From positions 35,774,001-35,838,000 of the forward strand of contig OX597838.1 of NCBI GenBank assembly GCA_951406725.2: a stretch of 64,000 nt of DNA. The letters are read 5' to 3'. This DNA is from Octopus vulgaris (Eukaryota). The notes beneath the pieces were generated by a model, which was not told the origin of the DNA, did no database searches, and was given only the letters and a program-made list of their open reading frames with translations. The number at the start of each line of letters is the position of its first letter. Positions within the stretch are counted from its first letter, which is position 1. Made by a program: the position numbers and the translations under genes. Below are positions 15,021 through 44,981 of the stretch, piece after piece.

Positions 15021-15608
15021 GCTCATACATATATTTCTATATTTACATTCATATATATATATATACATATATTTACATTCGTATATATATACATACATAC
15101 ATACATACAATACATACATACATATATATATATATATGCTCATACATATATTTCTATATTTACATTCATCCATAATGCATATACATTCATACACGTATAT
15201 ATAACTTATCATAGATTAGAAATAACCATTTCGATTTTTGTTCTTCACATGGAACCAAGATCCTGCTGTCATTCCATTTATTTGCAGCAAAATATAACCT
15301 GACTTTGAAAACTTCACAATTCTTCAAAAAGTGGAAAAAAAAAAAAAAAAAAGAGATCCATATTTTTTCATTTACCTATTTATTTATTTATCTATTTATT
15401 CGTTTTGCTTACATGAATAATTCTTGGATTCTTAATTTATTTTACCATTTTAAATCTTCTAGTGCTTCTTATTTATTTGCTTTGTGTTTCAATTATGCAC
15501 TCTCTCTCTCTCCCTCTCTGTCCTTTCTCTCTCTCTCTCTCTCTCTTTTCTCTCTCTCTCTCTCTCTCCTTATCTCTCTTTCTCATCTTTCTCATCTTCT
15601 AATTTCAG

Positions 15609-15634
15609 TTTTCGCAACCAGCCACAAGACCATC
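15609..15634 (+). other. 5' UTR part of the same exon; implies an upstream exon
   Basis: Long CT tract and ctaat branch-like motif before tttcag; 26 nt to ATG in context accatcATG. Confidence 0.65.
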
Positions 15635-15966
15635 ATGTTCGATGGTGTTAGCATATCCCCACCAACGAGTGGTGGCACGGCGGTGCCTCTCAACGGCTAC
15701 TTAACCAAAAATCTGTCCATGGCTCAAAGATACCAGGAGGCAACAGCGGCCCAGCCACCGCCGCCGCCGCCGCCGCCCCCACCGCCACCCCCGCCGCTGC
15801 CCCCGTCGTCGATGATTGCTTACAATAAGTCTAAAGAGGAAGTGAAAGTCTCTTCCGAACCACCAGTTTCCGTCAAAATTTCAAATTACGAAATTCTCGA
15901 TCATGAGCGGAAACGGAAAGTGGAACTTAAGTGCATGGAAATGCAAGAGTTGTTTGAAGAGAAAGG
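15635..15966 (+). CDS. First coding exon of an SRRM2/3/4-family (Cwc21/cwf21 domain) splicing factor; partial CDS ending at a phase-2 intron
   Basis: MFDGVSISPPTSGGTAVPLNGYLTKNLS...EILDHERKRKVELKCMEMQELFEEKG matches the cwf21 signature (SRRM2 ILDHERKRRVELRCLELEEMMEEQG, from memory). Acceptor (CT)n..ctaatttcAG ends at 15608, ATG is at 15635, donor GG|GTAAGT is at 15967. Confidence 0.9.
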
Positions 15967-15983
15967 GTAAGTTATATTTGATT

Positions 15984-16049
15984 CCATTCGGTTTGATTCC
16001 ATTCCATTTGTACTGAATTTCTTACTAACCTACCTGCCTCCGTAATAAC
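15984..16049 (+). promoter_or_regulatory. Candidate intronic splicing-regulatory cluster (3x YCAY plus ACTAAC-N13-TAAT)
   Basis: CCAT at 15984, 15999 and 16004; TACTAAC at 16023-16029; TAAT at 16043. Confidence 0.3.
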
Positions 16050-16167
16050 CTACCTTTCTTCCTTCTGAAGTCAGTCTCTTCTTCACTCACTCGCGCCTTT
16101 TCTATGTGTGAATGAGAGTGTCTCAGCGCTTACGAGAGTCTGTGAGTGCATTTGTGTGTAGGATGGA

Positions 16168-16590
16168 AAGAGAGAGAGAGAGAGAGAGAAGGAGAGAGAG
16201 AGTGTGTGTGTGTATGAAAGAGTGTGTGTGTGTGAGAGAGAGAGAGAAGAAGAGTATGTGTGTATGAAAGAGTGTGTGTGTGTGAGAGAGAGAGGAGAGA
16301 GAGTGTGTGTGTGTATGAAAGAGTAAGTGTGTGTGTGAGAGAGAGAGAAGGAGAGAGTGTGTGTGTGTATGAAAGTAAGTGTGTGTGTGTGAGAGAGAGT
16401 GTGTGTGTATGAAAGAGTAAGTGTGTGAGAGAGAGAGAGAGAAGGAGAGTATGTGTGTGTGTGTGTGTATGAAAGAGTAAGTGTGTGTGTGAGAGAGAGA
16501 GAAGGAGAGAGAGTGTGTGTGTATGAAAGAGTAAGTGTGTGTGTGTGTGTGAGAGAGAAGGAGAGAGAGTGTGTGTGTATGAAAGAGTAA

Positions 16591-16624
<34 letters not shown>

Positions 16625-16625
16625 A
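16168..16625. repeat. Compound (GA)/(GT) minisatellite with gtatgaaagag anchor
   Basis: About 8 units, starting ~200 bp after the exon donor. Confidence 0.85.
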
Positions 16626-16837
16626 TGAGGGAAATAGAGGAAAGTATGTGTGTGTGTGTTTGTGTGTTTATAAGAATGTGTTTGCACGGCTATGTGGAAA
16701 TTTCTGTGTATGTAAATGTAAGTGTATGTTTCTGCGTGTATGTCAACACACGTTTGTGGGAGTGAATGGGTGTATGGGTTTGTGTGTGTGCATATGCGTG
16801 CCTTTGTTTTTTTGTTTTTCTTTTGCTTGTGTATGAA

Positions 16838-16868
<31 letters not shown>

Positions 16869-17324
16869 CTATGAAGCGTTATAAAGACATAATTTCATTT
16901 CCTTTCTGTGTGCCTCAAGTCTGATTCTTTCTGTTATAATGGTGTATTTCTTTATACTTTCTTTCTGAGAGCATTCTATAGAGATCAAAGCTTAAAGACA
17001 CACACGTACACATGAGCGCTCAAACACTCAACATCACAGAGGAACACCATACACATACATGCACAATCACAAATATGCACACACTCACACACACATATTA
17101 ACAAATCCACAATACTACACATACATGATCAATATTGCTTATAAACTAATTCCCAAACACATCCGTCCCTATATCAGACTAAAACAATTTGATTCCCATT
17201 TTTATATTTTTACAATTAATTTTGATATTTATCCCATCCCCACTTTTTGTTTTGGTCCTTGAATTTTTTTGATAATTTTTTACTCACACGCTGTTATAGA
17301 ATTGAGATCCTAAAACCAAGGTGC

Positions 17325-17560
17325 CACTTAAAAAACATTGGTGTGGGTGCTGATGCCCCATAAAAAGCACCGGTGCTGGATCCATGTAAAAAGCACTGGT
17401 GCTGGTGCCACGTAAAAAGCACCGGTTCTGGTGCCAGGTAAAAAGCACTTATGCTGGTTCCACATAAAAAGCACTGGTTCTGGTGCCACGTAAAAAGCAC
17501 TGGTGTTGGTTCCACATGAAAAACACTGGTGTTGGTTCCATGTAAAAAGCATTGTTGACA
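17325..17560. repeat. 24-bp tandem repeat (taaaaagcactggt..)
   Basis: About 9 units; resembles an RTE 3' UTR submotif; 22-bp relative at 14545-14745. Confidence 0.8.
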
Positions 17561-17950
17561 GCACTATGTAAAATGCACTCAATACACTTTGTAAAGTGGT
17601 TGGCACTAGGAAGGGCATTGAGTCATAGAAACCAAGCCAAAGGAAATACCAATACTGATACAATTTCTCAACTTGTAGTGCCATTGGATTACCAGACTAA
17701 AATGGTTTGGGTGGTTTTGTTAAAATTCTTCCTACTCTTGAGCTTTTTTCTCTTTTTTTGGTTGTAAATATTTAGCCACAGGCTTGGCTGTGTAGAAGAT
17801 GCTCAATTTACAACCTCATGTGGTGTTTTGGATTCAGTCCCAATGCATTGTACATTGAGCAAATGTCTTGTGCTGAAGATTCAGGCTGACCAATGCCTTG
17901 TGAGTGAATTAGGTAGAGAGAAACTGAAAGGAGCACATCATATACAGGGT

Positions 17951-18290
17951 CATCGTCGTCGTTTAGCGTCCGCTTTCCATGCTAGCATGGGTTGGACGGT
18001 TCGACTGGGGTCTGGGAAGCCAGAAGGCTGCACCAGGCCCAGTCTAATCTGGCAATGTTTCTACGGCTGGATGCCCTTCCTAACGCCAACCACTCCGTGA
18101 GTGTAGTGGATGCTTTTTATGTGCCAGACAGGGCTGGCAAACGGCCACAGTCGGATGGTGCTTTTTACGTGCCACCGGCACGGGGGCCAGGCAGCGCTGG
18201 CAATGGCCATGTTGGGATGGTTCACTTACGTGCCACCGGCACTGGTGTCACAGCTACAATTTCCCTTGATGTTGACTGATTTCGATTCTG
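17951..18290 (-). mobile_element. RTE 3' UTR fragment
   Basis: Same family consensus. Confidence 0.75.
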
Positions 18291-18753
18291 GGTGCGTAAG
18301 ATATTTGAGGACAGATTTATGTTTATAAAAGAAACAAATATATAATAACAGATAATAACTTTATTTATCAAAAAATGCTATGAGGATAAAAATAAACCTT
18401 CTTTTCTATAATGTTACTCAATAAAGCAACCTTCAGCTTTAAGAACTGCTTCTATATTAGATCTAAATCATCTACATGCTTGAATCAAGTGGTCCTGGTT
18501 CATTTTGGACATTACTCTGACTATGGCAGCTTTCAAAGAATCTTTGGTGTTATGGGTGTGTTCATTGACCGCTCTCTTAACAAGGCTCTACATGCCTCTT
18601 AACATGCCTCTTCATACCTCTTAACATGCCTCTTCATTTCTTGAGTAAGCTGAGGGTCTGCTATTATTATTTTCTGAAATGAAGATTATACAGAGTTTGC
18701 AAAAAATGCAGCAATGACCCCCAAAAGGTATGTCCTCAAATACATTATGCACC

Positions 18754-18802
<49 letters not shown>

Positions 18803-18915
18803 TATTTATATATATATATTTATATATATATATATTTATATATGTATATTTATGTATATATTTGGTTTATTTACATTCCTGTAACTTAGCAGTTTGGCAT
18901 ATATATATATTTATT

Positions 18916-18947
<32 letters not shown>

Positions 18948-19270
18948 TATATATGTATATATATGTATATATTTGGTTTATTTACATTCCTGTAACTTAG
19001 CAGTTTGGCAAAAGAGAATGATAGAATAAGTGGCAGATGAAAAAAATATTGTACTCGGGTCAATTTGTTTGGCAGAATTGTTTTCACGTTGCGCAAAATG
19101 CTTAGTGGTATTTCGTCTGTCTATATGTTCTGAGTTCATATTCCATCACGATTAACTTTGCCCTTCATCCTTTTTGGGGTCGATAAAATAGTACCAGTTG
19201 CATACTGGGGTTGATGCAATTGACTGCCCCCCTCCCCCACATTTCAGGTATTGTGCCTATAATAGAAAGG

Positions 19271-19309
<39 letters not shown>

Positions 19310-19679
19310 ATTAAGGTTGTGAGCTGGTAAAGTTGTTAGCATGCTGGGCAAGGTGCTTAGTGGCATGATCTGAGTTCAAATTCTGCTGAGGTCGACTTTA
19401 GCTTTTATCCTTTGAAGGTTGATAAACTAAGTACCAGACAAGTACTGGGGTTGATGTAATCAGCTGTCCCCTTCCCACAAATTCCTGGCCTGGTGCCTAT
19501 AGTAGAAAGGGTTATTATTGGCTGTCCCTTCCTCTACAATTCTTGACTTTGTGCCAAAACCTGAAACTAGTTTTATGATTTACTCATCTCTATGTAAATG
19601 TTCACCATCCTTTGTCATTGTATTGTCCTAAATGATTTGGTGGTCCTTGTGGCCAATAAAAAAAGAATTATCATTATTA

Positions 19680-19910
19680 GCACCATCCGATCGTGGCTGT
19701 TTGCCAGCCTCGTCTGGCACCTGTGCCGGTAGCACGTAAAAAGCACCCACTACACTCATGGAGTGGTTGGCGTTAGGAAGGGCATCCAGCCGTAGAAACA
19801 TTGCCAGATCAGACTGGGCCTGGTGCAGCCTTCTGGCTTCCCAGACCCCAGTTGAACCATCCAACCCATGCCAGCATGGAAAGCGGACGCTAAACGATGA
19901 TGATGATGAT
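19680..19910 (+). mobile_element. RTE 3' UTR fragment with (GAT)n tail
   Basis: ..ggaaagcggacgctaaacgatgatgatgat. Confidence 0.75.
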
Positions 19911-20755
19911 AATAATTTTCTTTAATATAATTTTCAACTTTTGCTTTTTTGCAGTTCTATTTGAAATTAAATCTAAATAATAAATAAATGAATAGTTTTG
20001 AAAACGTAAAAACTAAAACAAGAAAAAAGCATAAATCAAAACAAGCAAAATAAATTCTGAAAAACATTAAAATACATAAAAATAAATGTCTAATTAAAAC
20101 TTTAAAATAAATCTTAAAAGCATGAAAATTGAAAAAAAAATTAGTAAAAAAAAAAAAATTAGATATAATAAAAATAACGTAAGAAAAAAAGAAACCCCGA
20201 TAAATTTTGAAATAAATCCCAAAGATGACATGCCAGCATAATGGCCATTTTTAATCCTGTGGAACTGTTGTCGTGCGCAAGTCTTTCTGTTAATACACGA
20301 GACATGTGTCACATACAGACATTTCAGTTCTGGTTGTGAAGTCTTTTTTTAAGTCTAAAATTTCTCAGGCTGTGTGTGTGTGTGAGTTTTCCTTTCTTAT
20401 GATGTCTCCTTCCTTATCTCTGTCTGTGTCTCTGTTTTTTCTCTCTTCCTCTCTCTCTCTCTCTCTCTCTCATTTCTAATGGTCATATAGAATGCTACAT
20501 ATGTACTCACACAAGCATGTACATGTACATACACACACATATACACACACACACATACATGCAAGCATATCATATTTCAATCTTCTTCACATAGATGTGT
20601 CCATTCATGCACATATACACATAAACCCACACACATACATACTATTGTGTATATATATATATATAGTTAATCCAAACAAGAAAGCACAAAAAAAAACAAC
20701 AACGCAAGGACGTGGAACAAATAAAGTATTATTGGACGCTCAAGAAAGAAGGAGG

Positions 20756-20790
20756 GTTTAACGTTTCGAGCGGAGCTCTTTGTCAGAAAC
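20756..20790 (-). ncRNA. Minimal hammerhead motif, G8>A core change
   Basis: GTTT-CTGACAA-A-GAGC-TCC-GCTC-GAA-ACGT-T-AAAC, in a ~200-bp unique block between microsatellites. Confidence 0.6.
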
Positions 20791-20955
20791 ATAGAAGGAA
20801 AGATCCAGAGAAGGGAAGACAGAGGAAAAAAAATCGCCAACGGTACACACGAGGTCACATTTTGAAAGCAATATATATATATATATACATTTACATACAT
20901 ACATATATACATTCATACATACATACATACATACATACATACATACATACATACA

Positions 20956-21024
<69 letters not shown>

Positions 21025-21171
21025 GTTAAACGTCCGATGAATGGGAACGTAAAACTCCTAGTAACAGGTTTTGTTGAATTTCTGCTGCTTTTAAATAAAG
21101 CATATTACTCTACCCCTGGTATTTGAGTACTCTTTTTTCAACCTTGTTTCACATTTATGTATTTACTCTGG

Positions 21172-21213
<42 letters not shown>

Positions 21214-21756
21214 CAGACAGAGAAAGTGATATAGATACACATATATACATAAGCAAACTTATCACATTTCAGTCTTGTATGCATATATGCACTCACACAG
21301 GAATACAATGATAACACATTCACATTGACACATACTAACAAATGCACATATCTCTTAGCCTCACACACATATCTTTATATATATATATATATCACAGTAC
21401 TGACCAGACCATTAGATGCTATTTAAAAGGCATTGGTCACAATCTGCTTCCAATTCTGTCTTCATTGTACCATTCATTACCTTCTTGACCAAAATCGATT
21501 TTTCATTGTCATGGAAGCCTTTCAAATGGCCTTTTCTCATCTCTTGGATACCAGTTGGCCACTGCACAGGTGGAACTTGCGCTTTTGATATTCTGTAATC
21601 GCATTGTTCACTGCATTCCATTCTCAAAGTACAGTAATCTCTCGACTAATGCAGGTGTTATGTTCCAAAACCCTACACAATAGGTAAAACCCACAAAGTA
21701 GAAACAGTACTGCACTGTATATATTTAAAAATTATTTTTATAATTTGTATAGATTT

Positions 21757-21778
21757 CATCATCATCATCGTTAAACGA

Positions 21779-21826
<48 letters not shown>

Positions 21827-22131
21827 GTTTAACGTCCGTTTTCCATGCTAGCATGGGTTGGATGGTTCGACCGGGGTCTGGGAAGCGAGGAGGCTGCACC
21901 AGGCTCCAGGCTGATCTGGCAGTGTTTCTACATCTGGATGCCCTTCCTAACACCAACCACTCCGTGAGTGTAGTGGGTGCTTTTTACGTGCCACCAGCGC
22001 AGGTGCCAGGGCAGGCTGGCAACGGCCACGATCGGTTGGTGTTTTTTTATGTGCCACAGGCATGGAAGCCAGTCAAGGCAGCGCTGGCATCGGCCACATT
22101 CGGATGGTGCTTTTTACGTGCCACCGGCACA
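21757..22131 (-). mobile_element. RTE 3' UTR fragment
   Basis: Long (CAT)n then family consensus. Confidence 0.75.
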
Positions 22132-22231
22132 ACTTTATTAAAGTATTGAGTTCTTATTGTTGGTTCAGCTGTTGTATCATCATGTATGTTAACTCACTTT
22201 GAAACATATTTATAATTTTTCACACACACAC

Positions 22232-22609
22232 AGGCGTAGGAGTGGCTGTGTGGCAAGTAGCTTGCTTACCAGCCACATGGTTCCAGGTTCAGTCCCACTG
22301 CATGGCACCTTGGGCAAGTGTCTTCTACTATAGCCTCAGGCTGACCAAAGCCTTGTGAGTGGATTTGGTAGATGGAAACTGAAAGAAGCCCGTTGTATAT
22401 ATGTGTGTGTGTGTATATGTTTGTGTGTCTGTGTTTGTCCCCCTAACATCGCTTGACAAGCGATGCTGGTGTATTTACATCTCTGTAACTTAGCAGTTCG
22501 GTAAAAGAGACTAATAGAATAAGTACTAGGCTTACAAAGAATAAATCCTGGGGTTGATTTGCATGGCCACAGTCAAATGACTGAAACGAGTAAAAGAGTA
22601 AAAAGAGTA
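22232..22609 (+). mobile_element. SINE family A
   Basis: Family consensus. Confidence 0.85.
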
Positions 22610-22997
22610 TAGAGAGTTTGCACATACCCATGCACACTTATATACATATACACATGTGTTTATGCATATGTCTATATATATTTATATATGTACATGTGTG
22701 TATATATTTATATATTTATATATGTACATGTGTGTGTATGTATGTGTATTAGAATCTGTATCACTGAGTACGTATATATATGCACACACACATGACCTGA
22801 TTGGAGCTTTGTGCAGCCTCCTGGCTTGCCAGGCCTCAGTCAAACTGTCCGACCCATGCCAGCATGGAAAGTGGATGTTAAATGACGATGATATGTAAAT
22901 GTTAAGTGATGAAAATGAGTGCTCAACACCATTTTGGTAGCTGGACGAAACCAATGGTAGGCTTAATTCATAAATAAAGAGTATGTATATATATATG

Positions 22998-23153
22998 ACT
23001 ACACTCTCGGAGTGGTTGGTGTTAGGAAGGGCATCCAGCTGTAGAAACACTGCCAGATCAGACTGGGCTTGGTGCAGCCTTCTGGCTTCCCAGACCCCAG
23101 TCAGACCGTCCGACCCATGCTAGCATGGAAAGCGGACGTTAAACGATGATGAT
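22998..23153 (+). mobile_element. RTE 3' UTR fragment
   Basis: Family consensus ending in gatgatgat. Confidence 0.75.
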
Positions 23154-23154
23154 A

Positions 23155-23186
<32 letters not shown>

Positions 23187-23415
23187 CACACACTCACATA
23201 CATACACTTACACATGCATATATTTACACACATGCTCATACACAATAACTCAGAGAGAGAGAGAGTGAGAGAGAAAATAATGTATCAAATTACACAATTA
23301 GAGAGAAATACATATGGTAATTATGTGTATATATGTGTGTGTGTGTGTGTGTGCATCCGCGTTGCGCATATCTGTGCATATATGCCTATCATGTGTGTGT
23401 TCATGTATGCGCATG

Positions 23416-23446
<31 letters not shown>

Positions 23447-23793
23447 TGATTGATTGACAAATAGAGATGTACAAAGAGAGAGTGGGGGGAGAGTGCATGT
23501 GTGGAAAAAGAGAAAGGTTTTTAAAAGTATCCACTGCACTGGTGCATTCTCAGAGCCTTTGTATAAAGTCATGCTTTACCAGGTGCAAAATATGTTGCAC
23601 TTTCTGCATGGGACTGGTTTGGGGAGGTGGAGGTGGATGTTTTTGTGTGCAGCAAATCAATAGCTTGGGTTGTTACCATTAGGAAAACAAAGGCCTCTTT
23701 TGTTCCCCCCTCCCGGTGTGTTTTCCTCTTGTTCAATGTTCCAGCGTTCTCTCTTGTCCTCTGCAAATACATTCGCGCACGTGTGTGTGTGTG

Positions 23794-23844
<51 letters not shown>

Positions 23845-23950
23845 ATATATGGATGCATATACACACATATATAGATGCATATATACATATATGTGTGTGA
23901 ATGTATATATATATATACACACAGTCTCTGTGTGTCTGTGTATATATATA

Positions 23951-23984
<34 letters not shown>

Positions 23985-24021
23985 TATATGTATGCACGTA
24001 TATATGTCTGTATATGTATGA

Positions 24022-24058
<37 letters not shown>

Positions 24059-24677
24059 CATATATGTATGCACGTATATATGTCTGTATATGTATGAGCA
24101 TATATATATATATATATACACATACATATATGTATGCACGTATATATGTCTGTATATGTATGAGCATATATATAGATGTATACATGTGTTTATATATATA
24201 TATATATATATGTATGTGTATGCATGTGTGTGTATAGTGGTAAAAGAAAAACAATTCAAAGAGAAATGAATTAAAACAAATGTTTTAAGTAAATGAAGAG
24301 AAATTAAAGTCAAAGAATTTATATAAAATGTGAGAAAAAGCATATCAATAACATAAATCTATATTATACTTCTGCCTGTTCGTTCGTTCACATGTTACAC
24401 TGTTTTGTGGTTAACTGAAAGGGGAGGCAAAGAATGAAGGAGGGAGAAATGTTACCAATGAGAAGTAGGGGAAAAGTAATAGTCGCTATGCTAAGATGCT
24501 CTCAAATGGTTAGTTCAAGGAAGAAATGGTGAGGGAGAGAGAGAGAGAGACAGTGCTACCACTGAGAGGTAAGAGAAAGATATTGCTATTACATTGTATG
24601 GTTAATGAGTTGAAGAAGGAGGTAGAAAGTAGAAAGAAAGAGATATAAAGACCTTCAATTCAGAGGAATGTGGTATA

Positions 24678-24903
24678 TATTTCTTTACTGCCCACAAGGG
24701 GCTAAACACAGAGGGGACAAACAAGGACAGACAAAGGGATTAAGTCAATTACATCGACCCCAGTGCGTAACTGGTACTTTATTTATCGACCCCGAAAGGA
24801 TGAAAGGCAAAGTCGACCTCGGCGGAATTTGAACTCAGAACGTAACGGCAGACGAAATACGGCTAAGCATTTCGCCCAGCGTGCTGACGTTTCTGCCAGC
24901 TCG
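24678..24903 (-). mobile_element. SINE family B
   Basis: TSD ggaatgtggtata. Confidence 0.88.
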
Positions 24904-25041
24904 GGAATGTGGTATAGTTGAGGCAAAAGACAGAGATGGAGAGAGAGAGAGAATTAGTGACTGAGTGTTGACTGAAAGGAACATGGGAGTGGAAAGCAGT
25001 TATGTGATTTTAAATGTTATATAATAGAATATTATGACCAA

Positions 25042-25439
25042 CAGGAGTGGCTGTGTGGTAAGTAGCTTGCTAACCAACCACATGGTTCCAGGTTCAGTCC
25101 CACTGCGTGGCATCTTGGGCAAGTGTCTTCTACTATAGTCCCGGGCCGACCAATGCCTTGTGAGTGGATTTGGTAGACGGAAACTGAAAGAAGCCTGTCG
25201 TATATATGTATGTGTGTGTGTGTGTGTTTGTGTGTCTGTGTTTGTCCCCCTAGCATTGCTTGACAACCTATGCTGGTGTGTTTATGTCCCCGACACTTAG
25301 CAGTTCGGCAAAAAGAGACCGATAGAATAAGTACTGGGCTTACAAAAGAATAAGTCCCGGGGTCAATTTGCTCGACTAAAGGCGGCGCTCCAGCATGGCC
25401 GCAGTCAAATGACTGAAACAAGTAAAAGAGTAAAAGAGA
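25042..25439 (+). mobile_element. SINE family A
   Basis: Family consensus; partial copy at 25692-25842. Confidence 0.85.
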
Positions 25440-26239
25440 TGTTTGTATTTTTAGAGTGGACAGATACATAGAAAGAAATGTAAGCAGAATACGATCAATA
25501 GGTGAGTAAGTAGATTGGTGGGTGGGTAGGTTGGTGGGTAAGTAAATCGATAGATAGAGAGATTGATTGATTGTTTGATCTCCCCTTCAATATTGCTTGT
25601 GAGGATCTTCACATCTTATCAAGAATCAAATGTTTCAGAAAAATATACAATTCCATCATACAATGTTTAAAATAACTGTAGAATTTCCGCAAGTGGCTGT
25701 GTGGTATGTAGCTTGCTAACCAGCCACATGGTTCTGGGTCCAGTTTCACTGTGTGGCACCTTGGGCAAGTGTCTTCTACTATAGCCTCAGGCCAACCAAA
25801 GCCTTGTGAGTGGATTTAGTAGACGGAATTTGAAAGAAACCCACCCTGCTCAAAAGGTCCCTAAATAAGGTTTGTTTAAGGATGATGAATGAAACACCCA
25901 TATTTGTAGGGGTGAATTATTCAAACCCAAAGAATTCCTCTCAACACATGGCTATGATACCCCAAACACTACTTCTGCTTGTGATCAGAGATGCACATAT
26001 CATCAGCCACTAAGGTACAAGCTCAACTGATTAAGGTCAAGCAACTGACAAGCAAATCTGTGGTATCTGTAGTCCATCTTTTATACCAAGACAAAACAAT
26101 ATATATGATAACACTTCCAATCAGTTAAGATGAGAAACCATGAGAATCACTGTCAGGTGCTGTATTAGGTTCTTTATTAATATCATTATTATTGTTATTT
26201 AGGCGCTGAGTTGGCAGAATTGTTAGCATGCTCGGCATA

Positions 26240-26398
26240 TTATTATTATTATTATTCTCTGTTTGACTTTTGCTTTATATTTGTACAAGTTGGCTCCAAG
26301 TCTCACCCAGAGACCTCAAGAGGCAACAGGTTGGAAGTTCGTATTGTTGTTATGCCTAGCGTGCCATATATTTGGTTTTGTATTTAGTGTTGTACTAT
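26240..26398 (-). mobile_element. Probable LINE 3' UTR within a (TAA)n tract (possibly Dong/R4-like)
   Basis: Unique block flanked on both sides by (TAT)n; clade assignment is inference. Confidence 0.4.
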
Positions 26399-27296
26399 TA
26401 TTATTATTATTATCATTATTATTAAGGCACTGAGCTGGCAGAACCGTTAGTGCACTGGGCAAAATGCTTAGTGGCATTTCATCTGTCTTTATGTTTTGAG
26501 TTCAAATTCTGGTGAGGTCGACTTTGCCTTTCACCCTTTTGGGATCAATAAATTAAGTAACAGTGAAACATTTGGGTCGATGTAATCGAATAAATACTAG
26601 GCTTACAAAGAATAAGTCCTGGGGTCGATTTGCTTGACTAAAGGCGGTGCTCTAGCATGGCCACACTCAAATGACTGAAACGAGTAAAAGAGTATTATTA
26701 TCATTCTTCTTCTTATTATTATTATTATATATTTTTTTTTTTTGGTGGGTGGTGGTTATTATTAGTAGAATCAGTAGAGCGACAGAAGAAATGGTTTGCA
26801 ATATTTAGTAATGTCTCTTTTACGGTCTAAATTGAGATGTTGCTTAGGTCAGACTTTGCCTTTCATGTCTTCAGGCTCGATTAAATGATGTAACAGCCCC
26901 CATCAACCTCCGATAATTTGTAGCCTTGTAACGATGACAATGATATTTCTAAATCATTGTCAACACTTATTTTGCTATCTGTCCCCCCCCCCCATGTCAT
27001 ATCCCCCCCTTCATCCAGCCAACTTGTTACTTGAATTCTCTTTGGTATCATTTATTATTTTCTTTTTTATTTTCTGAGCTTTATACATACATATACACAT
27101 ACATACACTTTTTGCTTCTCTCCTTTTCTCTCTATACATACATACATACTATATTGTATATCTAAATTTATAAATAAATAAATATATATATATATATATA
27201 TTACATATCTATCATAATTTTATGTATATGAATATATATATATATATATATATATATGTTACATACAGTATATATATATATATATGATACATATAG

Positions 27297-27329
<33 letters not shown>

Positions 27330-27956
27330 CATACAGTATATATATATATATATTTATATATGTATATAATACATATAGTATATACATATATATATATATA
27401 TATATATACATATATATGATACATATATATATATATATATATATATATGATACATATAGTATATATACATATATATATATATGTATATATGATACATATA
27501 GTGTATATATACATATATATATATATATGTATATATGATACATATAGTGTATATATACATATATATATATATATGATACATATAGTATATACATATATAT
27601 ATACACACATACACACAAAATTTTTTCTTTCAGTTTTCTTTTCTTTTGTTTACTGCTTATTTTTTTGTTTTACTTTATATATTTTTTCCTTTTGTTTCAT
27701 TTTTCTCTTTTGTTTTGTTTTAATTTTGTTTTTCACTCTACATATTATTTTTCTTTTTTTCATATTTGTTTTTTTTTTTTTTTTTCTATTTTCCTGAGTT
27801 TTTCAGACCCAATTTATTTTCTTATGTATTTCTTCAATGCTGAACTGACACATAGGGTAAGAATAAATAACAAGTTGTTATGGAAAGGCAAAGGTCGATA
27901 GGAAAAAAAGAAAACAAACAAACAAACAAACTATATATGGCTTATTTAAGATATAT

Positions 27957-28003
<47 letters not shown>

Positions 28004-28133
28004 AAATTATTTTACTGAACCCTAATTATATAACGTAATGTTTTAAATATACCGTAAATGGTCTTTTTACATACTGAACACTACTTGGTAAAATTATTAA
28101 TTAATAATTAATTAATTTTACCCTTTTATTATT

Positions 28134-28180
<47 letters not shown>

Positions 28181-28238
28181 TATATAAGTGTAGGAAGAAA
28201 TGGAGCTGAACGAAGATTTAACAAAATTTCTTTTTATT

Positions 28239-28324
28239 ATTTTCTACATATGTTTCGAAGGCTGCAAAGTCCCTAATTCGGATTGAATAAGGAGTCCATT
28301 TTGCAGCCTTCTCTTCAGGAAAAT
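28239..28324 (-). ncRNA. Type I hammerhead ribozyme with intact core, in a probable Penelope-like remnant
   Basis: Minus strand: ATTTTC-CTGAAGA-GAAGGCTGCAAA..TTTGCAGCCTTC-GAA-ACATATGT-A-GAAAAT. 6-bp stem I, 12-bp stem II, palindromic stem III, GUA cleavage triplet. Confidence 0.8.
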
Positions 28325-28418
28325 CCAGGAACTTAATTCTCCAACAAAATGCACAGCAAGCTTTTCGACAAACGCTCACGAGGAGCCCATGAAATAAATG
28401 GCACAAACTGTCTATCTA

Positions 28419-28459
<41 letters not shown>

Positions 28460-28464
28460 GTATA

Positions 28465-28741
28465 CAGTAGTGGACTGGCCAGGTTGCCAGCTTGCCCAAA
28501 GGCAAGTGGGCCCCTGCCCCTTTAGAACTCGTGTTAGTATCTAAGGGGCCCATCCCCTCAAGTTTGAGAATTTTTTATTCACCCCTGGAAGAATGCATTA
28601 ATTATTTTAGCCTGGGTGTGTTTGTAGACAGTGGAAAAGAATACTTATAACAAGCAAAAAAAAAAAATTAAATGATAACATTGTAGTTGTGGGTGAACCC
28701 CCTTAGTCTCCTGGCAACCAATATTTTTAGACCCAGTCTGC

Positions 28742-28746
<5 letters not shown>
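28465..28746. mobile_element. Probable hAT-like MITE within (TA)n
   Basis: Ends cagtagtggactgg / ccagtctgccacta (imperfect TIR). Confidence 0.55.
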
Positions 28747-28797
<51 letters not shown>

Positions 28798-29368
28798 ATA
28801 CAGGAATTGGGATTTAGAATCTGGGCAGGTACTACATTAGCACTCTGATATAATCCAGATTTGGCTAAACACATCAAATAATAGGGAACATACAGAATTG
28901 TTTAAGGATAAGCAGTTATTTAGCACTTCACTCAGTAGATAAATCTTGAGTTTGCTTCATTGAATTTTGCACATCATACAGAGTGTATAATCAAGACATC
29001 ACAAAGAAGGAGAGAGAATTGTAACATCTCTAAAATTTGTTTATTACAGTATTATTTGCTTTATATTCCAATCCAACAAGTGTTTCTGCTAGATGACTGT
29101 CCCAATGTCCTTTGAAGTAGCCCTTATATGCATTTAGTCGATTCAGTCACAGAACATATTCATCCAATGTAGGTATTCTTAGGCAGATTTGTTCAAGGTT
29201 TTATGCATTGAGGTGGGTGAAGCAAACTGAGGGTTTGAGTATAAAGTAGCCCTTCTTAAAGTATATTCTAGGTGAGGGGTCATAAAACCTTAGGGTACAC
29301 GACAGTAGAGATTGCTTTGAAATATATGTCTATTGTACTGGTATTTTTAGAATTTTAGGGAATAAATA

Positions 29369-29775
29369 TAGGTGCAGGAGTGGCTGTGTGGTAAGTAGCT
29401 TGCTTACCAGTCACATGGTTCCGGGTTCAGTCCCACTGCATGGCACCTTGGGCAAGTGTCTTCTACTATAGCCTTGGGCCAACCAAAGTCTTGTGAGTGG
29501 ATTTGGTAGACGGAAACTGAAAGAAGCCCACCGTATATATGTATATACATATATATGTGTGTGTATGTTTGTGTGTCTGTGTTTGTTTTTCTAGCATTGC
29601 TTGACAACCGATACTGTTGTGTCTATGTCCCTGTAATATAGCGGTTCAGCAAAAGAGACCGATAGAATAAGTACTAGGCTTACAAAGAATAAGTCCTGGG
29701 GCTTGATTTGCTTGACTAAAGGCAGTGCTCCAGCATGGCCACAGTCAAATGACTGAAACAAGTAAAAGAGTAAAG
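29369..29775 (+). mobile_element. SINE family A
   Basis: Family consensus. Confidence 0.85.
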
Positions 29776-30610
29776 ATTATTTTATATATTTAGTAGTAGA
29801 AAAAAAAAAAAACCTTGATTAGGTCAGAATGCAGTCAAATCGCCTCACTGACTATTCACAGGGAGAATGATATAATACCGTATATGATAAATGGTCAGAT
29901 TTTAAAGGAATCGGAAGAAAGAGGAAATAAAAGAAACATTGTTTTAATTTTGGTTTTCAAACCAGTCCGTAGCAGTAACATTTTATATACTTATTTGAAT
30001 ATTAGAGGTGTTGTATTGATTGGGATGAATAAGTTGAAATTCTAATCATATTTTAGTCTAATCGTATTTATAAAAAGAAAAGCTATAATTTTGAGGTTTA
30101 TTGTGAGATTGTTAAAATCTAACTTGAGTAAATATGCAGTTATTTGACTCGGTTAACTTCTGTGCACTTCTATAAATGTGGCATCCAATTAAGAATCCTT
30201 ATTTGGAAAGTATTTAAATACTTATCTAAATGAATGTGCACATTTCAGAGATAATGCATTTACGTGATTTATTAACCAGTAATTAGAGGTAAAGATATGG
30301 AATATTTCTTTGAGTAGATTACATTTCAAGTTCCTAATAGTATACAGGGAAGCACTATGAATTATTGCCCTTTTAATATCATATTTAGTGTCCTTATCCT
30401 TTAAGGTTCAGGCAAACCCACTCAAACTTGAACTATTCAATTTTTGCCTATTAATCAAAGGACATTAAGATGCTTATCTGGCAGAAACACATGTCAGATT
30501 GGAATTTAATGAGAATAATACTGTAATATTACGGAGATGTACTTGCACACCAAGTGACCTGATCTGAGATTGTGTGCTGGAGCGAAAACAATTTCAGCAT
30601 GGAAGGTGTT

Positions 30611-30841
30611 TATAAGCCATTTAAGAAACACAAAATCCGTTAGATTCACTTCAACATTTGAATTTAATTTGTGTCAAAATATTTTCATCACTTTGAGACC
30701 ATGACCTGTTCATTGACAGGCAGCACGGAATTTTGTCAGTGAACGGGTCACGGTCTCAAAGCGCCGAAAATATTTTGACAAATTGAATTTAAATGTTGAA
30801 GTGAATCGAACGGATTATGTGTGTTTCTTAAATGGCTTATA
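30611..30841. repeat. 231-bp fold-back, probably an inverted Penelope-like terminal repeat
   Basis: tataagccatttaagaaacac.. pairs with ..gtgtttcttaaatggcttata; hammerhead-like motif in each arm. Confidence 0.85.
30732..30782 (+). ncRNA. Degenerate G3:C8-variant hammerhead motif (right arm of fold-back)
   Basis: TTTGTCA-GTGAACG-GGTCAC..GCGCC-GAA-AATATT-T-TGACAAA; mirror copy on minus strand at 30672-30718. Confidence 0.5.
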
Positions 30842-31075
30842 CTACTATCTACTATGGCAATCCCTCAAGGTCGAGGATGATGGTCTTCGCGCAAATTTAT
30901 TGGTGAGTCCGCAGGTGACTAATAAGACCAATTCTTGCTCGAAAAGATCGGTCACAGTGCAGACATCTAGTGCCGGAAGGGAGAGTCGCACGTGGTTGTT
31001 GGCGCTCCTTCCGTCGTCGTCTTTTCTCCTCCAGCTCTGCAGACCTTTTCGACTCGAAATTCTTATAAATACTCG
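30842..31075 (-). mobile_element. 5'-truncated RTE-type LINE with TSD
   Basis: Minus frame FESKRSAELEEKRRRRKER..CLHCDRSFRARIGLISHLRTHQ* (stop 30897-30899); short 3' UTR, TAG-like tail, 12-bp TSD aaatggcttata. Confidence 0.85.
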
Positions 31076-32023
31076 AAATGGCTTATAAATACTGTAATAA
31101 ACAACTTTTAAAGATGGACAATTCTCCATGCTTCTTTGTGATGTCATGACTCCACAGACAGACACACACTCACAGAGACACACACACACACACATTCATC
31201 TTCATTATCAATCTCTGGACATTACTGTCTCCAGCCCTGGGATTCATAGGGCTGGCTCCTCAGTTTCCACAGTATAATTATGATTATTATTATTGAGTGA
31301 GAGAGCAGTGCATTCCATCAAAGTGACACTGGGGCACAAATATACGGAGCCCAGTATACCCATCATGACTACCTGTCTCATAAGGGTACACCAGGCAGGT
31401 GCACACAACCATATGTGTACGTCATGGTAATCTCATATCAAAATAAAACAGCACATGACCTTGCAGGTAGGGCCCAATTAGAATTTTCTTTCGGTCAAGT
31501 AACCCATCCTGCTCAAAAGGTCCCTAAACAAGGTGCCTATAGTAGAAAGGTTTATTATTATCATAGTTATTATTATTTTAAAGAGAGTGAGCTGGCAGAA
31601 TCGTTAGCCTGCTGGGCAAAATACTTCATGGCATTCTGTCTGTCCTTACGTTCTGAGTTCAAATATCACTAAGGTCGATTTTGCCATTCATCTCTTCGGG
31701 ATTGATAAAATAAGTACCAGTTAAACACTGGGGGCCGATCTAATCCACCTTCCCCCTCCACTGAACTCACTGGCCTTGTCTCAAAATTTTAAATCAATAT
31801 TATTATTATTATTACTATTATTAGTTAGTATTAGAATTAATATTAGGAAGGAAGGGGGGGGGGGAGAAGACAAGATTTGTTTGTTTTGTTTGTTTATTTG
31901 TTTTCTTTTTTTTTTCTTGAAACTCTGTTGCGTTTACTGATGCTATTGCTAGTGGTGATGATGATGATGATAATGCTGCTACTACTGCTACTTCTGCTGC
32001 TACTAATATCATGTATGCCTAAC

Positions 32024-32024
32024 T

Positions 32025-32062
<38 letters not shown>

Positions 32063-32063
32063 G

Positions 32064-32099
<36 letters not shown>

Positions 32100-32308
32100 T
32101 GTATGTTTAATTCTACTACTACTACCACCACTACTACTACTATGTATGTTTAATTCTACTACTACTACTACTACTCTTACTACTACTACTATGTATGTTT
32201 AATTCTACTACTACTCTTACTACTACTACTCTTACTACTACTACTATGTATGTTTAATTCTACTACTACTACTACTACCACCACTACTACTACTATGTAT
32301 GTTTAATT

Positions 32309-32349
<41 letters not shown>

Positions 32350-32515
32350 GTGTATGTTTAATTCTACTACTACTCTTACTACTACTACTATGTATGTTTA
32401 ATTCTACTACTACTCTTCTACTACTACTACTACTACTACTACTACTGCTACTACTACTACTGTGTATGTTTAAATACTACTGCTATGTATGTTTAATTAT
32501 ACTACTACTACTACA
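32024..32515. repeat. (CTA)n array punctuated by TATGTATGTTTAATT
   Basis: 9 anchor copies with variable CTA runs. Confidence 0.9.
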
Positions 32516-33484
32516 CAGTATGATATAGACTTTGAGATGTTCTGTGGGTTTTTCTTGTATATGTATAGCATGGTATATTCCCGGATATTCCACAAAATGC
32601 TTTCAATCATGGTATGTTGCGGTATGCTGTCAGATATTGTATGGTATCTTATAATAAATACACTCTTAAATGTTTTGTAGTGTGTACAATGTAGTGTATG
32701 ATGTATGATGTACACTCTGATACACCAAGGATTCATGTTTTAATACACACACACACACACACTCTCTGACACATGTCTATGTGTTTATATATACAAAGCT
32801 CTATGATTGGAGTTGGTAGATGGAAACTGAAAGAAGCTTGTCATATGTATGTGTATATATCAGTGTACATGTTACCATCTCTTTGCCCTGACTGCACAAA
32901 GGGCATCTAGCCATAGAAAATCTGCTTCAGTAAACTCCACTAGATCCATGCAAGCATGGAAAAGAGGATGTTACGGCAATGGTGATGAAAATGATAAATG
33001 CAAAGTGCTGGGGTCGATTTGCTTGACTAAAGGCGGTGCTCCAGCATGGCCGCAGTCAAATGACTGAAACAAGTAAAAGAGTAAAAAGAGTATCCATCCA
33101 TCTACACCCATTATTCCTGGAAGGGTTCTGAGATAGAGTCCTCAGGGCCCTCCTTGATAAAGTTCTATCAAAAGCAGTTGTCATTATTCTTCCCAGTTGG
33201 ATTCTTAAGCATGACAAGTTGTGACTGTAGATCTTATCCAACCATTTCATTCTTGGTCTGCTTCTAGGTCTCCTAGTGGTTTGTTATGCTTGAAGAATTT
33301 ACCTTGTGATTCTTAACCATGATATTCTAAATCGCATGTCAGAAGTACCAAAGCTGCGACCTCTCAGTGCACAAAGAAGTTGTAGCTTAACCCCCTAGAG
33401 ACTCCCTAAGTTCCAAACTATGTAACCTGTAGAGTAATATATTAATCCTGAGGAATCCTATTTCAGATCCTTGTGTTTTTTTTG

Positions 33485-33990
33485 TCATCATTTAACGTCC
33501 GCTTCCCGTGCTAGCATGGGTTGGACGATTTGACTGAGGTCTGGTAAACCAGATGGCTGCGCCAGGCTCAATGTGATCTGGCAGAGTTTCTACAGATGGA
33601 TGCCCTTTCTAAAGCCAACCACTCCGAGAGTGTAGTGGGTGCTTTTATGTGCCACCAGCACAAGGGCCAGTCTGGCGGTACTGGCAATGGCCACGCTCAA
33701 GTGTTTTTTACATGCCACCTGCTCAGGAGTCAGTCCAGCGGCACTGGCAATGACCTCGCTTGAATGTTTTGTTCACGTGCCACCAGCACAGGTGCCAGTA
33801 AGGTGACGCTGGTAACGATCACGCTCAAATGGTGCTTTTTACAAGCCACTGGCACAGAAGCCAGACAGCTGCTCTGGCAGTGATCCCGCTCGGATGGTGC
33901 TGTTAACGCTCCACTGGCACGGGTGCCAGTCATCGAATTTGGTTCAGTTTTGGTTTCACTTGCCCCCAACAGGTCTTTGCAAGCGGAGTT
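33485..33990 (-). mobile_element. RTE 3' UTR fragment with internal subrepeats
   Basis: Family consensus with repeated gtgccacc..ggca units. Confidence 0.75.
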
Positions 33991-34954
33991 TGTGTTTCTG
34001 ATGATTATACTCTTTTGATCATTACACAACATTCATAACAACAGGCAGTGATAGGCATGGAAACCAGATTGTAAAAAATATAAGAAAGTAAATAAAAAAA
34101 TTTAAAAGTTCTTAAATTATGTGATATTCATTTTGGCAGCATTATTGATACTGACAATAACTGCATTAGGCTAATTTAAAATTCTCCTATTTAAACTTAC
34201 ATTATTTAAACAACCGAAAATTCCTCTCTTTGCATATAGCCTGAATCATGATTAAATAAATTTGAATCTTTAGTGTTTAAGGATTAGTTTATTCTTGTCT
34301 TTGATTTAATCGATGCTATTTTATATGTATATTTACATCAAATTACATACACACCTGTGCACATGCTCACACGTGTATGTATGAATGGTTTTGCGTGAAT
34401 TTATTTGACTTTTACAATTACTAATATTAATGTTCTTCATTATGTTTGGTATTACAAATAAAATGAAATTTCTTCATTCTTTAATCATACACCTCTTGCT
34501 TAATACATTTGCTTTGTTTTAAATTCCACTGAAAGCTTGTCTTCTAAAATGGTTTTGCATTTGAAAATTTTGCATGGTAACCAATTTGAATTTGCTATTG
34601 AACTTCAACCAGTTTAAATTGAATATTTCAAAAAGTAGTCTGAAGAATTTTGTTTTTCTTTTACTCAAGTATAACAGTTACAGATCATGTGATATGTTTT
34701 TGCTGTTATTGTCGTTTTATTTCAGGGGGTTTTGTTGTTGTTTTTTTTTGTATTTTTTTTTCATGCAGCTCTACTGACTTAAATGTCTCAAATCCAAACT
34801 TTAGGTCTTCAGAACTAGGAGGAAGCAACAGGATTTTTTTTCTTTATCCTCTTAGGAAGTAAGAGTCTTCTTTTTGGAAGGAGAAGAGATGAAGTAAAAG
34901 ATGTAATTACAATTAAAATGAAAATTTAATTAAAATTTTAAAAGCATTAAATAA

Positions 34955-35119
34955 TAGGCGCAGGAGTGGCTGTGTGGTAAGTAGCTTGCTAACCAACCAC
35001 ATGGTTCCGGGTTCAGTCCCACTGCGTGGTGGCATCTTGGGCAAGTGTCTTCTGCTATAGCCCCGGGCTGACCAATGCCTTGTGAGTGGATTTGGTAGAC
35101 GGAAACTGAAAGAAGCCTT
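34955..35119 (+). mobile_element. SINE family A, 5' part
   Basis: Family consensus head. Confidence 0.8.
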
Positions 35120-35237
35120 ATGCATTATGTTTGTTCCCTTCCACCACTTGATAAACGGTGTAGGTTTGCTTATGCCCCCACGACTTAGTGCTTCAGTAAA
35201 AGAGGCTGATAAAATAAGCACCAGGTATAAAAGACAA

Positions 35238-35840
35238 AGGCAGCGGGCTGGCAGAATCGTGAGCATGCTGGGCGAAATGCTTAGCGGTATTTCGTCTGCT
35301 GTTACGTTCTGATTTCAAATTCCGCCGAGGTCTACTTTGCCTTTCATCCTTTCGGAGTCGATTAAATAAGTACCAGTTACGCTCTGGGGTTAATATAATC
35401 GACTTAATCCGTTTGTTTGTCCTTGTTTGTCCTCTCTGTGTTTAACCCCTTGTGGATAGTAAAGAAATAGGTATTTCATCTCCCACTACGTTCTGAGTTC
35501 AAATTCCGCTGAGGTCTACTTTGCCTTTCATCCTTTCGGAGTCGATTAAATAAGTACCAGTTACGCTCTGGGGTCGATATAATCGACTTAATCCGTTTGT
35601 TTGTCCTTGTTTGTCCTCTCTGTGTTTAGCCCCTTGTGCTTAGTAAAGAAACAGGTATTTCGTCTGCCGTTACGTTCTGAGTTCAAATTCCGCCAAGGTC
35701 TACTTTGCCTTTCATCCTTTCGGGGTCAATAAATTAAGCACCAGTTACGTACTGGGGTCGATATAATCGACTTAATACCTATGTCTGTCCATGTTTGTCC
35801 CCTCTATGTTTAGCCCCTTGTGGGTAATAAAGAAATAGGT
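35238..35840 (+). mobile_element. SINE family B head-to-tail trimer
   Basis: One full copy plus two 5'-truncated copies joined at gaaa(t/c)aggtatttc. Confidence 0.85.
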
Positions 35841-36249
35841 ATAAAAGACAAATACTTGGGTTTGAGTTACTCAACTAAATCTTTAAGGTGCTTTCCAACC
35901 ATGACCATAGTCCAATGACTAAAACCAATAAAAGATAGAAAATTTAAAGAATAAAGAATTTAAAGAATATTATTTTAAGCCATTTTTTTCTGTCCTTCAT
36001 AAAGACATTATGCAACTGAAGATTTAAAAGTGATAATTGTTGACTGCAGCTAACAGTCTGCAGTTTCCCTGCTTGGTCTTGATGTTTCTTTGCTTTGATC
36101 ACCTGTTGGCTAATTTGATAGACTAAAATATCTCATGACATCTTTGATGACCAACCCCCCTCCTCCCCCCTCTAGTTACCACTCTTTATAGTGTTTATGG
36201 CATTTAGCAATAAACATCGCGACATGTGACATTCACCATCATGGCCATG

Positions 36250-36673
36250 TTACTCTCTTTTACTCTTTTACTCTTTTACTTGTTTCAGGCATTTGACTGC
36301 GGCCATGCTGGAGCACCGCCTTTAGTCGAGCAAATCGCTCCCCGGGACTTATTCTTTGTAAGCCCAGTACTTATTCTATCGGTCTCTTTTGCCGAACCGC
36401 TAAGTGAATGGGTACATAAACACACCAGCATCGGTTGTCAAGCAATGCTTGGGGGACAAACACAGACACACAAACACACACACATACATATGTATATATA
36501 CATATATACGACATGCTTCTTTCAGTTTCCGTCTACAAAATCCACTCACAAGGCATTGGTCGGCCCGGGGCTATAGCAGAAGACACTTGCCCAAGATGCC
36601 ACGCAGTGGGACTGAACCCGGAGCCATGTGGTTGGTTAGCAAGCTACTTACCACACAGCCACTCCTGCGCCTA
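36250..36673 (-). mobile_element. SINE family A
   Basis: Full-length reverse copy. Confidence 0.85.
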
Positions 36674-36946
36674 TGTTGTGAGGAAGTTTGTCTTTGCATC
36701 TGTATGGTTTTGGGGTTTAAGTTCCACTCTGTGGCTCTTTGAACGAGTGTCTTCTTTTATCTTGGGTTCAGGCTGACTGGAGCCATTGCAAGTGGAGTAC
36801 AGCGAACTGAAACTGATGAGTTTAAGAAACAAATGGACCTCTGGTGTAACATAACTCAATAAAGCACAAAGCCCAGAGACTAGGGAATCTCTTCAAGTCA
36901 AGTGGTTACATTTCTGCATTGAGAGTTCACATATCAGGCACTATGG

Positions 36947-40857: not shown

Positions 40858-40908
40858 CATAATGTTGTGGTATTCACATCTCTTGGACATTGCTGTCACT
40901 GCAATTCA

Positions 40909-43528: not shown

Positions 43529-43588
<60 letters not shown>

Positions 43589-44100: not shown

Positions 44101-44139
44101 ATATATTAGCGCTTGCATCTACTCTAGTAGACTCTTCAG

Positions 44140-44145: not shown

Positions 44146-44179
<34 letters not shown>

Positions 44180-44950: not shown

Positions 44951-44981
<31 letters not shown>

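What the first reader, a model, noticed from the sequence alone, without database searches (positions are those of the whole stretch)
15609..15972. Diverged SRRM2/3/4-family exon: possible lineage-specific SRRM3-like paralog
Seen: the cwf21 helix EILDHERKRKVELKCMEMQELFEEKG is well conserved. The normally near-invariant N-terminal peptide (MYNGIGLxTPRGSGTNGYVQRNLS) has drifted to MFDGVSISPPTSGGTAVPLNGYLTKNLS, losing RGSGT. Known: that peptide contacts Prp8/Snu114 and the 5' exon. Vertebrate SRRM3 keeps the cwf21 helix with a degenerate N-terminus, and SRRM3/4 drive neural microexon inclusion through the eMIC domain, whereas most invertebrates use one Srrm234 gene. Inference: this may be a second, independently duplicated copy specialised like SRRM3/4, which would be convergent with vertebrates.
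Basis: partly seen in the sequence, partly recalled or inferred. Interest (0 to 1): 0.85.

Follow-up and report, generated by a model that had tools for sequence, protein, structure and literature searches.

The report
Octopus independently evolved SRRM3-like splicing regulator
This exon opens a 1.55-million-base octopus gene that keeps the domain animals use to splice tiny neuronal exons but has lost its core-spliceosome anchor, which an intronless second copy keeps, so octopuses likely split the two jobs between two genes as vertebrates did, independently.

Summary
Confirmed and extended. Window 15609-15966 is a real exon: contigs from three studies cover it exactly and run on into an exon 276 kb away. 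It is the first coding exon of an 11-exon, 1.55-Mb gene model (633 aa, no stop) whose exons follow the order of a related cephalopod-type protein and end in the genome's only eMIC/SRRM_C hit. The genome has one other cwf21 gene, on another chromosome: intronless, 303 aa, canonical N-terminal peptide, no eMIC. Other molluscs and an annelid carry peptide and eMIC in one intron-bearing gene. The parent lost the same two blocks that vertebrate SRRM3 lost, yet its eMIC is mollusc-type (22-27 of 31 identical versus 13-16 for SRRM3): convergence. Not shown: neural-restricted expression, microexon activity, RNA joins beyond exon 2, expression of the intronless copy. No paper found describes the split, but the key 2019 paper could not be read.

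The parts
15501..15608 (+). CT-rich pyrimidine tract and AG splice acceptor of the first coding exon
   Evidence: sequence; contigs from three runs begin here with a foreign 5' loose end
15609..15966 (+). First coding exon (26 nt of 5' UTR, then 110 codons + 2 nt) of the Srrm234-derived, SRRM3-like gene
   Evidence: related proteins start at the equivalent Met
15635..15724 (+). Degenerate N-terminal peptide: counterpart of SRRM2 residues 1-26, RGSGT lost, 4-residue insertion
   Evidence: 10 of 26 identical versus 21-23 of 26 in canonical proteins; no hit to the 26-residue SRRM2 chain 6qdv_R at E<=1, which the intronless copy hits at 3.1e-8
15755..15805 (+). Poly-proline insertion (14 Pro, then LPP), not in the other cephalopod-type proteins
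   Evidence: a contig of a second organism has 6 gap letters in the exon, place not listed
15896..15966 (+). First half of the cwf21 domain (PF08312), conserved; second half is in coding exon 2
15967..64000 (+). Start of the 275,973-nt intron to coding exon 2. Remaining exons, outside the window on G000:C25 +: 36065940-36066038, 36736527-694, 37035543-611, 37138430-492, 37208470-514, 37218172-276, 37254260-541, 37301351-767, eMIC 37317482-628 and 37341781-955. Paralogue: G000:C27:11247-12158 +, intronless
   Evidence: no further family match inside the window; exon chain

Best explanation
The exon opens an intron-rich octopus Srrm234 gene that keeps the eMIC microexon domain but has lost the spliceosome-binding N-terminal peptide, which an intronless second copy keeps; the second copy is likely a retrocopy that took over the housekeeping job, leaving this gene predicted to act as a neuron-specific microexon regulator like vertebrate SRRM3. 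Steps: (1) shown: two cwf21 genes with complementary parts; (2) shown by RNA-type contigs for the exon 1-2 join, inferred from homology and open phase-2 frames for the other nine joins: one 633-aa protein from this exon to the eMIC; (3) inferred: reverse transcription of a short, eMIC-less isoform made the C27 copy in a cephalopod ancestor; (4) inferred: the C27 protein holds the Prp8 switch loop and 5' exon in every intron, which freed the parent to lose its N-terminal peptide and its third-exon block; (5) predicted, untested: the parent is transcribed mainly in neurons and its eMIC recruits U2AF/SF1 to weak 3' splice sites of microexons, so control moved from last-exon choice to the promoter.
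For: Two cwf21 loci among 7 candidates scored; one eMIC locus in three searches. Spliced join across 276 kb in three studies. Exons 1-8 are collinear with one 352-aa related protein; a RefSeq model of a sister species joins exons 2-3-4-5. Exon 9 matches the pre-eMIC segment of abalone and an annelid, 0 of 500 shuffles each. All ten introns are phase 2 with AG/GT ends. C27 runs open across the first three intron positions and is 72% identical over 146 nt spanning the exon 1/2 join. Those introns look ancestral: 52 of 88 canonical predictions break at join 1 and 5 of the 36 that cross it break at join 2. Same two blocks decayed in this gene and SRRM3: peptide 10, 9 versus 7, 12 of 26; third block 16, 19 versus 9, 0 of 55; cwf21 kept at 33-37 of 48. 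eMIC core 22-27 of 31 identical to 8 lophotrochozoan proteins, 13-16 of 31 to 12 vertebrate SRRM3-type proteins.
Against: No tissue data. No RNA evidence for joins after exon 2 in this species, for the eMIC exons, or for the C27 copy. No poly-A remnant or target-site duplication was identified at C27, and the tree does not resolve C27 as sister of this gene. AU test against grouping with SRRM3 is not significant on the N-terminal region (p 0.284) and only borderline with eMIC (p 0.0455). Exon 9 has a weak donor and did not beat shuffles against 3 of 5 lophotrochozoan proteins. Read-through of the first eMIC exon gives a stop after four codons, so an eMIC-truncated isoform is possible. The 5' UTR loose end was not found in the assembly.
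Confidence: 0.68

Rival explanations
1. Same duplication, but no move to transcriptional control: the gene is broadly transcribed, eMIC is still switched on in neurons by 3'-end processing, and the N-terminus decayed only because it became redundant.
For: Read-through of the first eMIC exon stops after four codons; abalone has isoforms with and without the second eMIC exon; this is the reported non-vertebrate rule (PMC8797185, passages).
Against: No RS-rich proximal last exon was found on the + strand of the 24-kb intron between the eMIC exons, by a scan that recovered the true neighbouring exons; without peptide or eMIC the protein would have no known job outside neurons (inference).
Confidence: 0.17
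2. The C27 copy arose by DNA-level duplication followed by loss of introns (cDNA conversion) and of the 3' exons, not by insertion of a retrocopy. The division of labour would be the same.
For: An acceptor-like pyrimidine tract and AG lies about 53 nt before the C27 start codon, as an ancestral 5' UTR intron would leave; no poly-A tail identified.
Against: Needs loss of at least three introns plus all downstream exons; C27 covers about the span of the ~220-aa short forms of other molluscs; different chromosome.
Confidence: 0.08
3. The eMIC exons belong to a separate transcription unit and the window exon opens an eMIC-less, decaying SRRM2 paralogue.
For: The related 352-aa protein ends at exon 8; joins 8-9-10-11 have no RNA support here.
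Against: Exon 9 bridges the gap in frame and in the ancestral order; strand, order and phase agree over 1.55 Mb; exons 2-8 stay 43-77% identical to the related protein, unlike a decaying gene.
Confidence: 0.05
4. Hidden paralogy: an SRRM3-type gene arose before the bilaterian split and survives only in vertebrates and cephalopods.
For: Best hits of the exon's protein among longer proteins are vertebrate SRRM3; a language-model search also ranks an SRRM3 cluster first at 0.89, a lead only; N-terminal AU test does not reject.
Against: eMIC core is mollusc-type and the free tree places the gene among lophotrochozoans, with SRRM2+SRRM3 on the other side (89/82, AU p 0.0455); it keeps a recognisable third-exon block that SRRM3 lacks; needs many losses.
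Confidence: 0.02

Closest known systems
Vertebrate SRRM3 (cwf21 PF08312 + SRRM_C/eMIC PF15230)
   Same: Degenerate N-terminal peptide, intact cwf21 domain, decayed third block, RS-rich middle, C-terminal eMIC split by an intron at the same place; a canonical eMIC-less paralogue alongside.
   Different: Sequence is mollusc-type, so not an orthologue by the evidence here; partner is intronless; poly-proline insertion; 1.55-Mb span; neural restriction untested.
Single-copy Srrm234 of non-vertebrate bilaterians (Drosophila CG7971; abalone, oyster, pond-snail and annelid proteins seen here)
   Same: Direct ancestor type: same exon order, intron positions and near-identical eMIC core.
   Different: Those genes keep the canonical peptide and supply both jobs through alternative last exons (PMC8797185, PMC10551640, passages); here the parts sit in two genes.
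SRRM2/SRm300, yeast Cwc21/Cwf21
   Same: The C27 copy matches human SRRM2 at E 1.9e-54 and the 26-residue modelled peptide at 3.1e-8.
   Different: The window gene lacks that peptide; the C27 copy is 303 aa, intronless, with His/Ser/Asn/Gly runs instead of a long RS region.
Vertebrate SRRM4/nSR100
   Same: eMIC domain.
   Different: SRRM4 has no cwf21 domain (recalled, not tested here); this gene keeps it.

Membership tests
Srrm2/3/4 (Srrm234) family | cwf21 domain PF08312 above cut-off | tested here: met
   30.2 bits on half the domain, cut-off 23.2; 39.9 bits in the genome search
Srrm2/3/4 (Srrm234) family | Ancestral intron positions and exon order | tested here: met
   (ancestral positions inferred from where gene predictions break)
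SRRM2/Cwc21 functional type | Conserved N-terminal peptide with RGSGT | tested here: not met
   10 of 26; met by the C27 copy, 22 of 26
SRRM3 functional type | Complete eMIC/SRRM_C domain in the gene | tested here: met
   first eMIC exon 33.2 bits, cut-off 27; second exon starts with the conserved basic/proline motif
SRRM3 functional type | eMIC exons spliced into the same mRNA as the cwf21 exons | tested here: inconclusive
   open in-frame model and homology; no RNA join seen beyond exon 2
SRRM3 functional type | Degenerate N-terminus with retained cwf21, beside a canonical eMIC-less paralogue | tested here: met
SRRM3 functional type | Neural-restricted transcription | not testable with these tools
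   runs are coded and carry no tissue label
SRRM3 functional type | Promotes inclusion of microexons with upstream UGC motifs | not testable with these tools
   needs expression or knock-down
Vertebrate SRRM3 orthogroup | Common descent with vertebrate SRRM3 to the exclusion of mollusc Srrm234 | tested here: not met
   eMIC identities and tree, AU p 0.0455; N-terminal data alone inconclusive, p 0.284
Functional retrogene (C27 copy) | Parent's introns absent, intact frame, different locus | tested here: met
Functional retrogene (C27 copy) | Poly-A remnant or target-site duplication | tested here: inconclusive
   none evident in the flanks read; expected to decay in an old copy
Functional retrogene (C27 copy) | Expression | not tested
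   only protein conservation: 65% to oyster over 219 aa

The most novel reading that the evidence does not exclude
Coleoid cephalopods are a second lineage, after vertebrates, that turned the neural eMIC isoform of Srrm234 into a dedicated, transcriptionally neuron-restricted microexon master-regulator gene. A retrocopy took over the spliceosomal job, and the parent then lost the same two protein blocks as SRRM3 and grew to 1.55 Mb. It was missed because annotations break the gene into fragments.
Probability: 0.55. Interest if true: 0.87.

Novelty: new variant of a known kind. Interest (0 to 1): 0.76.

Why it matters
The published rule is that vertebrates control the microexon programme by dedicated genes (SRRM3/4) and non-vertebrates by processing one gene (PMC8797185, introduction passage). 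A second, independent split in the invertebrate lineage with the largest brains would be molecular convergence at a master regulator of neuronal splicing, reached by a different route (retroposition rather than genome duplication). It also hands cephalopod biologists one knock-out target that should remove neuronal microexons without touching general splicing, and it predicts an enlarged microexon programme that existing RNA-seq can test.

Tried and rejected
Run search: 19 of 24 rows held the exon, none on record as RNA ('no RNA holder listed'); 5 rows with next to no words are not evidence of tissue restriction. RNA joins at the eMIC exon were not obtained. Contig look-up for the related protein was unavailable, so its species and gene structure stay unknown. 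A metagenome scan for other intronless copies found none among 586 pattern matches, so the copy is shown for this genome only. The 5' UTR loose end was not found in the window or genome with 0 or 2 mismatches. My first exon scan missed exon 9 through too narrow a donor pattern and gave a provisional 494-aa model, later replaced; the trees use regions that this does not affect. Structure hits of the exon's protein were poly-proline noise apart from one weak cwf21 hit. Pseudogene or chance match rejected: spliced, open, conserved. A fold or complex prediction was not run: no octopus Prp8 was in hand and the protein is mostly low-complexity. Torres-Mendez 2019 was not held.

Full report
Observation. 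The window is G000:C25:35774001-35838000. At 15609-15966 lies an exon with an AG acceptor, an ATG at 15635 and a phase-2 GT donor. No other family exon lies in the window.

It is spliced. Contigs from 4 runs of 4 studies were laid; their RNA status is a tool guess. Three cover the exon edge to edge (one in two pieces, broken at the proline repeat) and run on at both ends; the fourth, from a second organism, ends inside it. The 3' loose end equals the start of an exon at C25:36065940, 275,973 nt downstream. The 5' loose end, presumably an untranslated exon, was not found in the assembly and stays unexplained.

The gene. An unnamed 352-aa protein with the same kind of diverged N-terminus (P0093) and an oyster protein (P0101) were searched against the genome. 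P0093 gave 11 matches: the C27 gene, 7 collinear + strand exons on C25 and 3 scattered weak hits; P0101 gave 8: C27, 4 on C25 and 3 scattered weak hits. Scans of 180 kb of fetched sequence added two exons. The result is 11 coding exons over 1,552,347 nt, all introns phase 2 with AG/GT ends, the largest 670,488 nt, giving 633 codons without an internal stop. Exons 10 and 11 encode the eMIC (SRRM_C 33.2 bits); this is the only such locus found in three searches, which score only the best candidates. Support per join: 1-2 by contigs; 2-5 also by a RefSeq model of O. sinensis; 1-8 by P0093; 8-11 by frame, order and homology only. Exon 9 matches abalone and annelid pre-eMIC segments (0 of 500 shuffles each) but not 3 other lophotrochozoan proteins, and one of two vertebrate proteins weakly (9 of 500). 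The two octopus records of this gene that I met are fragments without a family name: 76 aa and 192 aa.

The second copy. The other cwf21 hit is C27:11247-12158, one open frame of 303 codons with the canonical peptide and no eMIC. It is 65% identical to oyster over 219 aa, matches human SRRM2 and its 26-residue modelled peptide, and is flanked by the same repeat types as the window. It runs unbroken across the first three intron positions and aligns at the DNA level across join 1. Those introns appear ancestral: 52 of 88 canonical predictions break at join 1, and named limpet, pearl-oyster, oyster, sea-slug and horseshoe-crab predictions break at join 2; this is indirect evidence. Its span resembles the ~220-aa short forms in other molluscs. 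Retroposition of a short isoform is the simplest account. No poly-A or target-site signature was identified and expression was not tested.

Ancestral state and spread. Of 242 fetched cwf21 proteins with enough upstream sequence, 194 have the RGSGT-type motif. Of the 48 without, I read 33 as vertebrate SRRM3-type, 8 as the type of this exon and 7 as canonical with single changes or truncation (13 short proteins set aside). All 10 named non-cephalopod molluscs in the tree are canonical; abalone, oyster and pond snail, an annelid (first eMIC exon) and a midge have peptide and eMIC in one protein. The diverged type forms one clade (100/100) with a long stem. Its unnamed members are far more distant than O. 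sinensis, so they are likely other coleoids (inference; species not determined).

Convergence or orthology. Against one mollusc-type reference, the window gene and P0093 keep 10 and 9 of 26 peptide positions, 37 and 33 of 48 in cwf21, 16 and 19 of 55 in the third block. Two SRRM3-type proteins keep 7 and 12, 35 and 34, 9 and 0. Canonical proteins keep 21-23, 28-39 and 27-42. The eMIC core is 22-27 of 31 identical to 8 lophotrochozoan proteins, 21 to an insect, 13-16 to 12 vertebrate SRRM3-type proteins. With cwf21 plus eMIC the gene falls among lophotrochozoans and grouping with SRRM3 is marginally rejected (p 0.0455); on the N-terminal region alone it is not (p 0.284). The backbone is poorly resolved and does not place C27.

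Mechanism. Cwc21/SRRM2 holds the Prp8 switch loop and touches the 5' exon (PMC5934631, passages; PMC7671692, passages). That residues 1-26 make this contact rests on the 26-residue chain and on my own knowledge. eMIC is necessary and sufficient for microexon inclusion, binds U2AF and SF1, harms non-neural tissue, and is controlled by transcription in vertebrates and by last-exon choice in non-vertebrates (PMC8797185, passages; PMC10551640, passages); cwf21 is not needed for microexon inclusion (PMC6800468, passages). I infer that once the copy supplied the spliceosomal function everywhere, the parent could be confined to neurons and shed the anchor. No RS-rich proximal last exon was found between the eMIC exons, though read-through gives an early stop, so some 3'-end control may remain.

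Literature. Nine searches (listings and abstract starts) found no paper on a cephalopod Srrm split. A 2026 preprint that includes octopus has no 'Srrm' or 'eMIC' in its main text (10.64898/2026.09.05.749416, passages; bioRxiv supplements are closed). Torres-Mendez 2019 (doi 10.1038/s41559-019-0813-6) was seen only as a citation; it or its supplements may mention octopus, though the same group's 2022 text states the non-vertebrate rule without exception. Three look-ups of the scan's own notes returned nothing on this gene.

Verdict. A real, spliced, unannotated giant gene; gene pair with complementary parts about 0.9; parent-and-retrocopy about 0.8; neuron-restricted SRRM3-like role about 0.65. 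New variant of a known kind; interest 0.76.

Noticed in passing
window 4606-5306 +: Broken mariner-type transposase in two overlapping frames (HTH_32 E 2.9e-7; Transposase_1 E 1.2e-13).
   Followed up: partly
window 13742-14092 +: Reverse-transcriptase fragment of a LINE, below the Pfam cut-off (RVT_1 E 0.0022).
   Followed up: partly
window, many places, e.g. 13024-13200, 25000-25300, 36214-36776, 43208-43831, 53870-54219: Many copies of one SINE-like interspersed repeat on both strands, also at the C27 and eMIC loci.
   Followed up: no
G000:C25:36066039-36736526: A 670-kb intron, after one of 276 kb and before one of 299 kb; nested genes and gaps were not checked.
   Followed up: no
L015, end of exon 5 (C25:37138492): Read-through of this donor gives Tyr-Val-stop, the same ending as two short canonical mollusc-type proteins: perhaps a conserved short isoform of the kind that was retrocopied, perhaps only the donor consensus.
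   Followed up: partly
G000:C27:11001-12500: The intronless copy lies 11 kb from the contig start, is GC- and CpG-rich (GC3 0.67; CpG o/e about 1.2), and has an acceptor-like site about 53 nt and a donor-like site about 30 nt before its ATG.
   Followed up: no
5' of window 15609: The upstream exon seen in three runs' contigs (at least 255 nt in two) has no match in the assembly by its last 30 letters: gap, polymorphism or a further small exon.
   Followed up: partly
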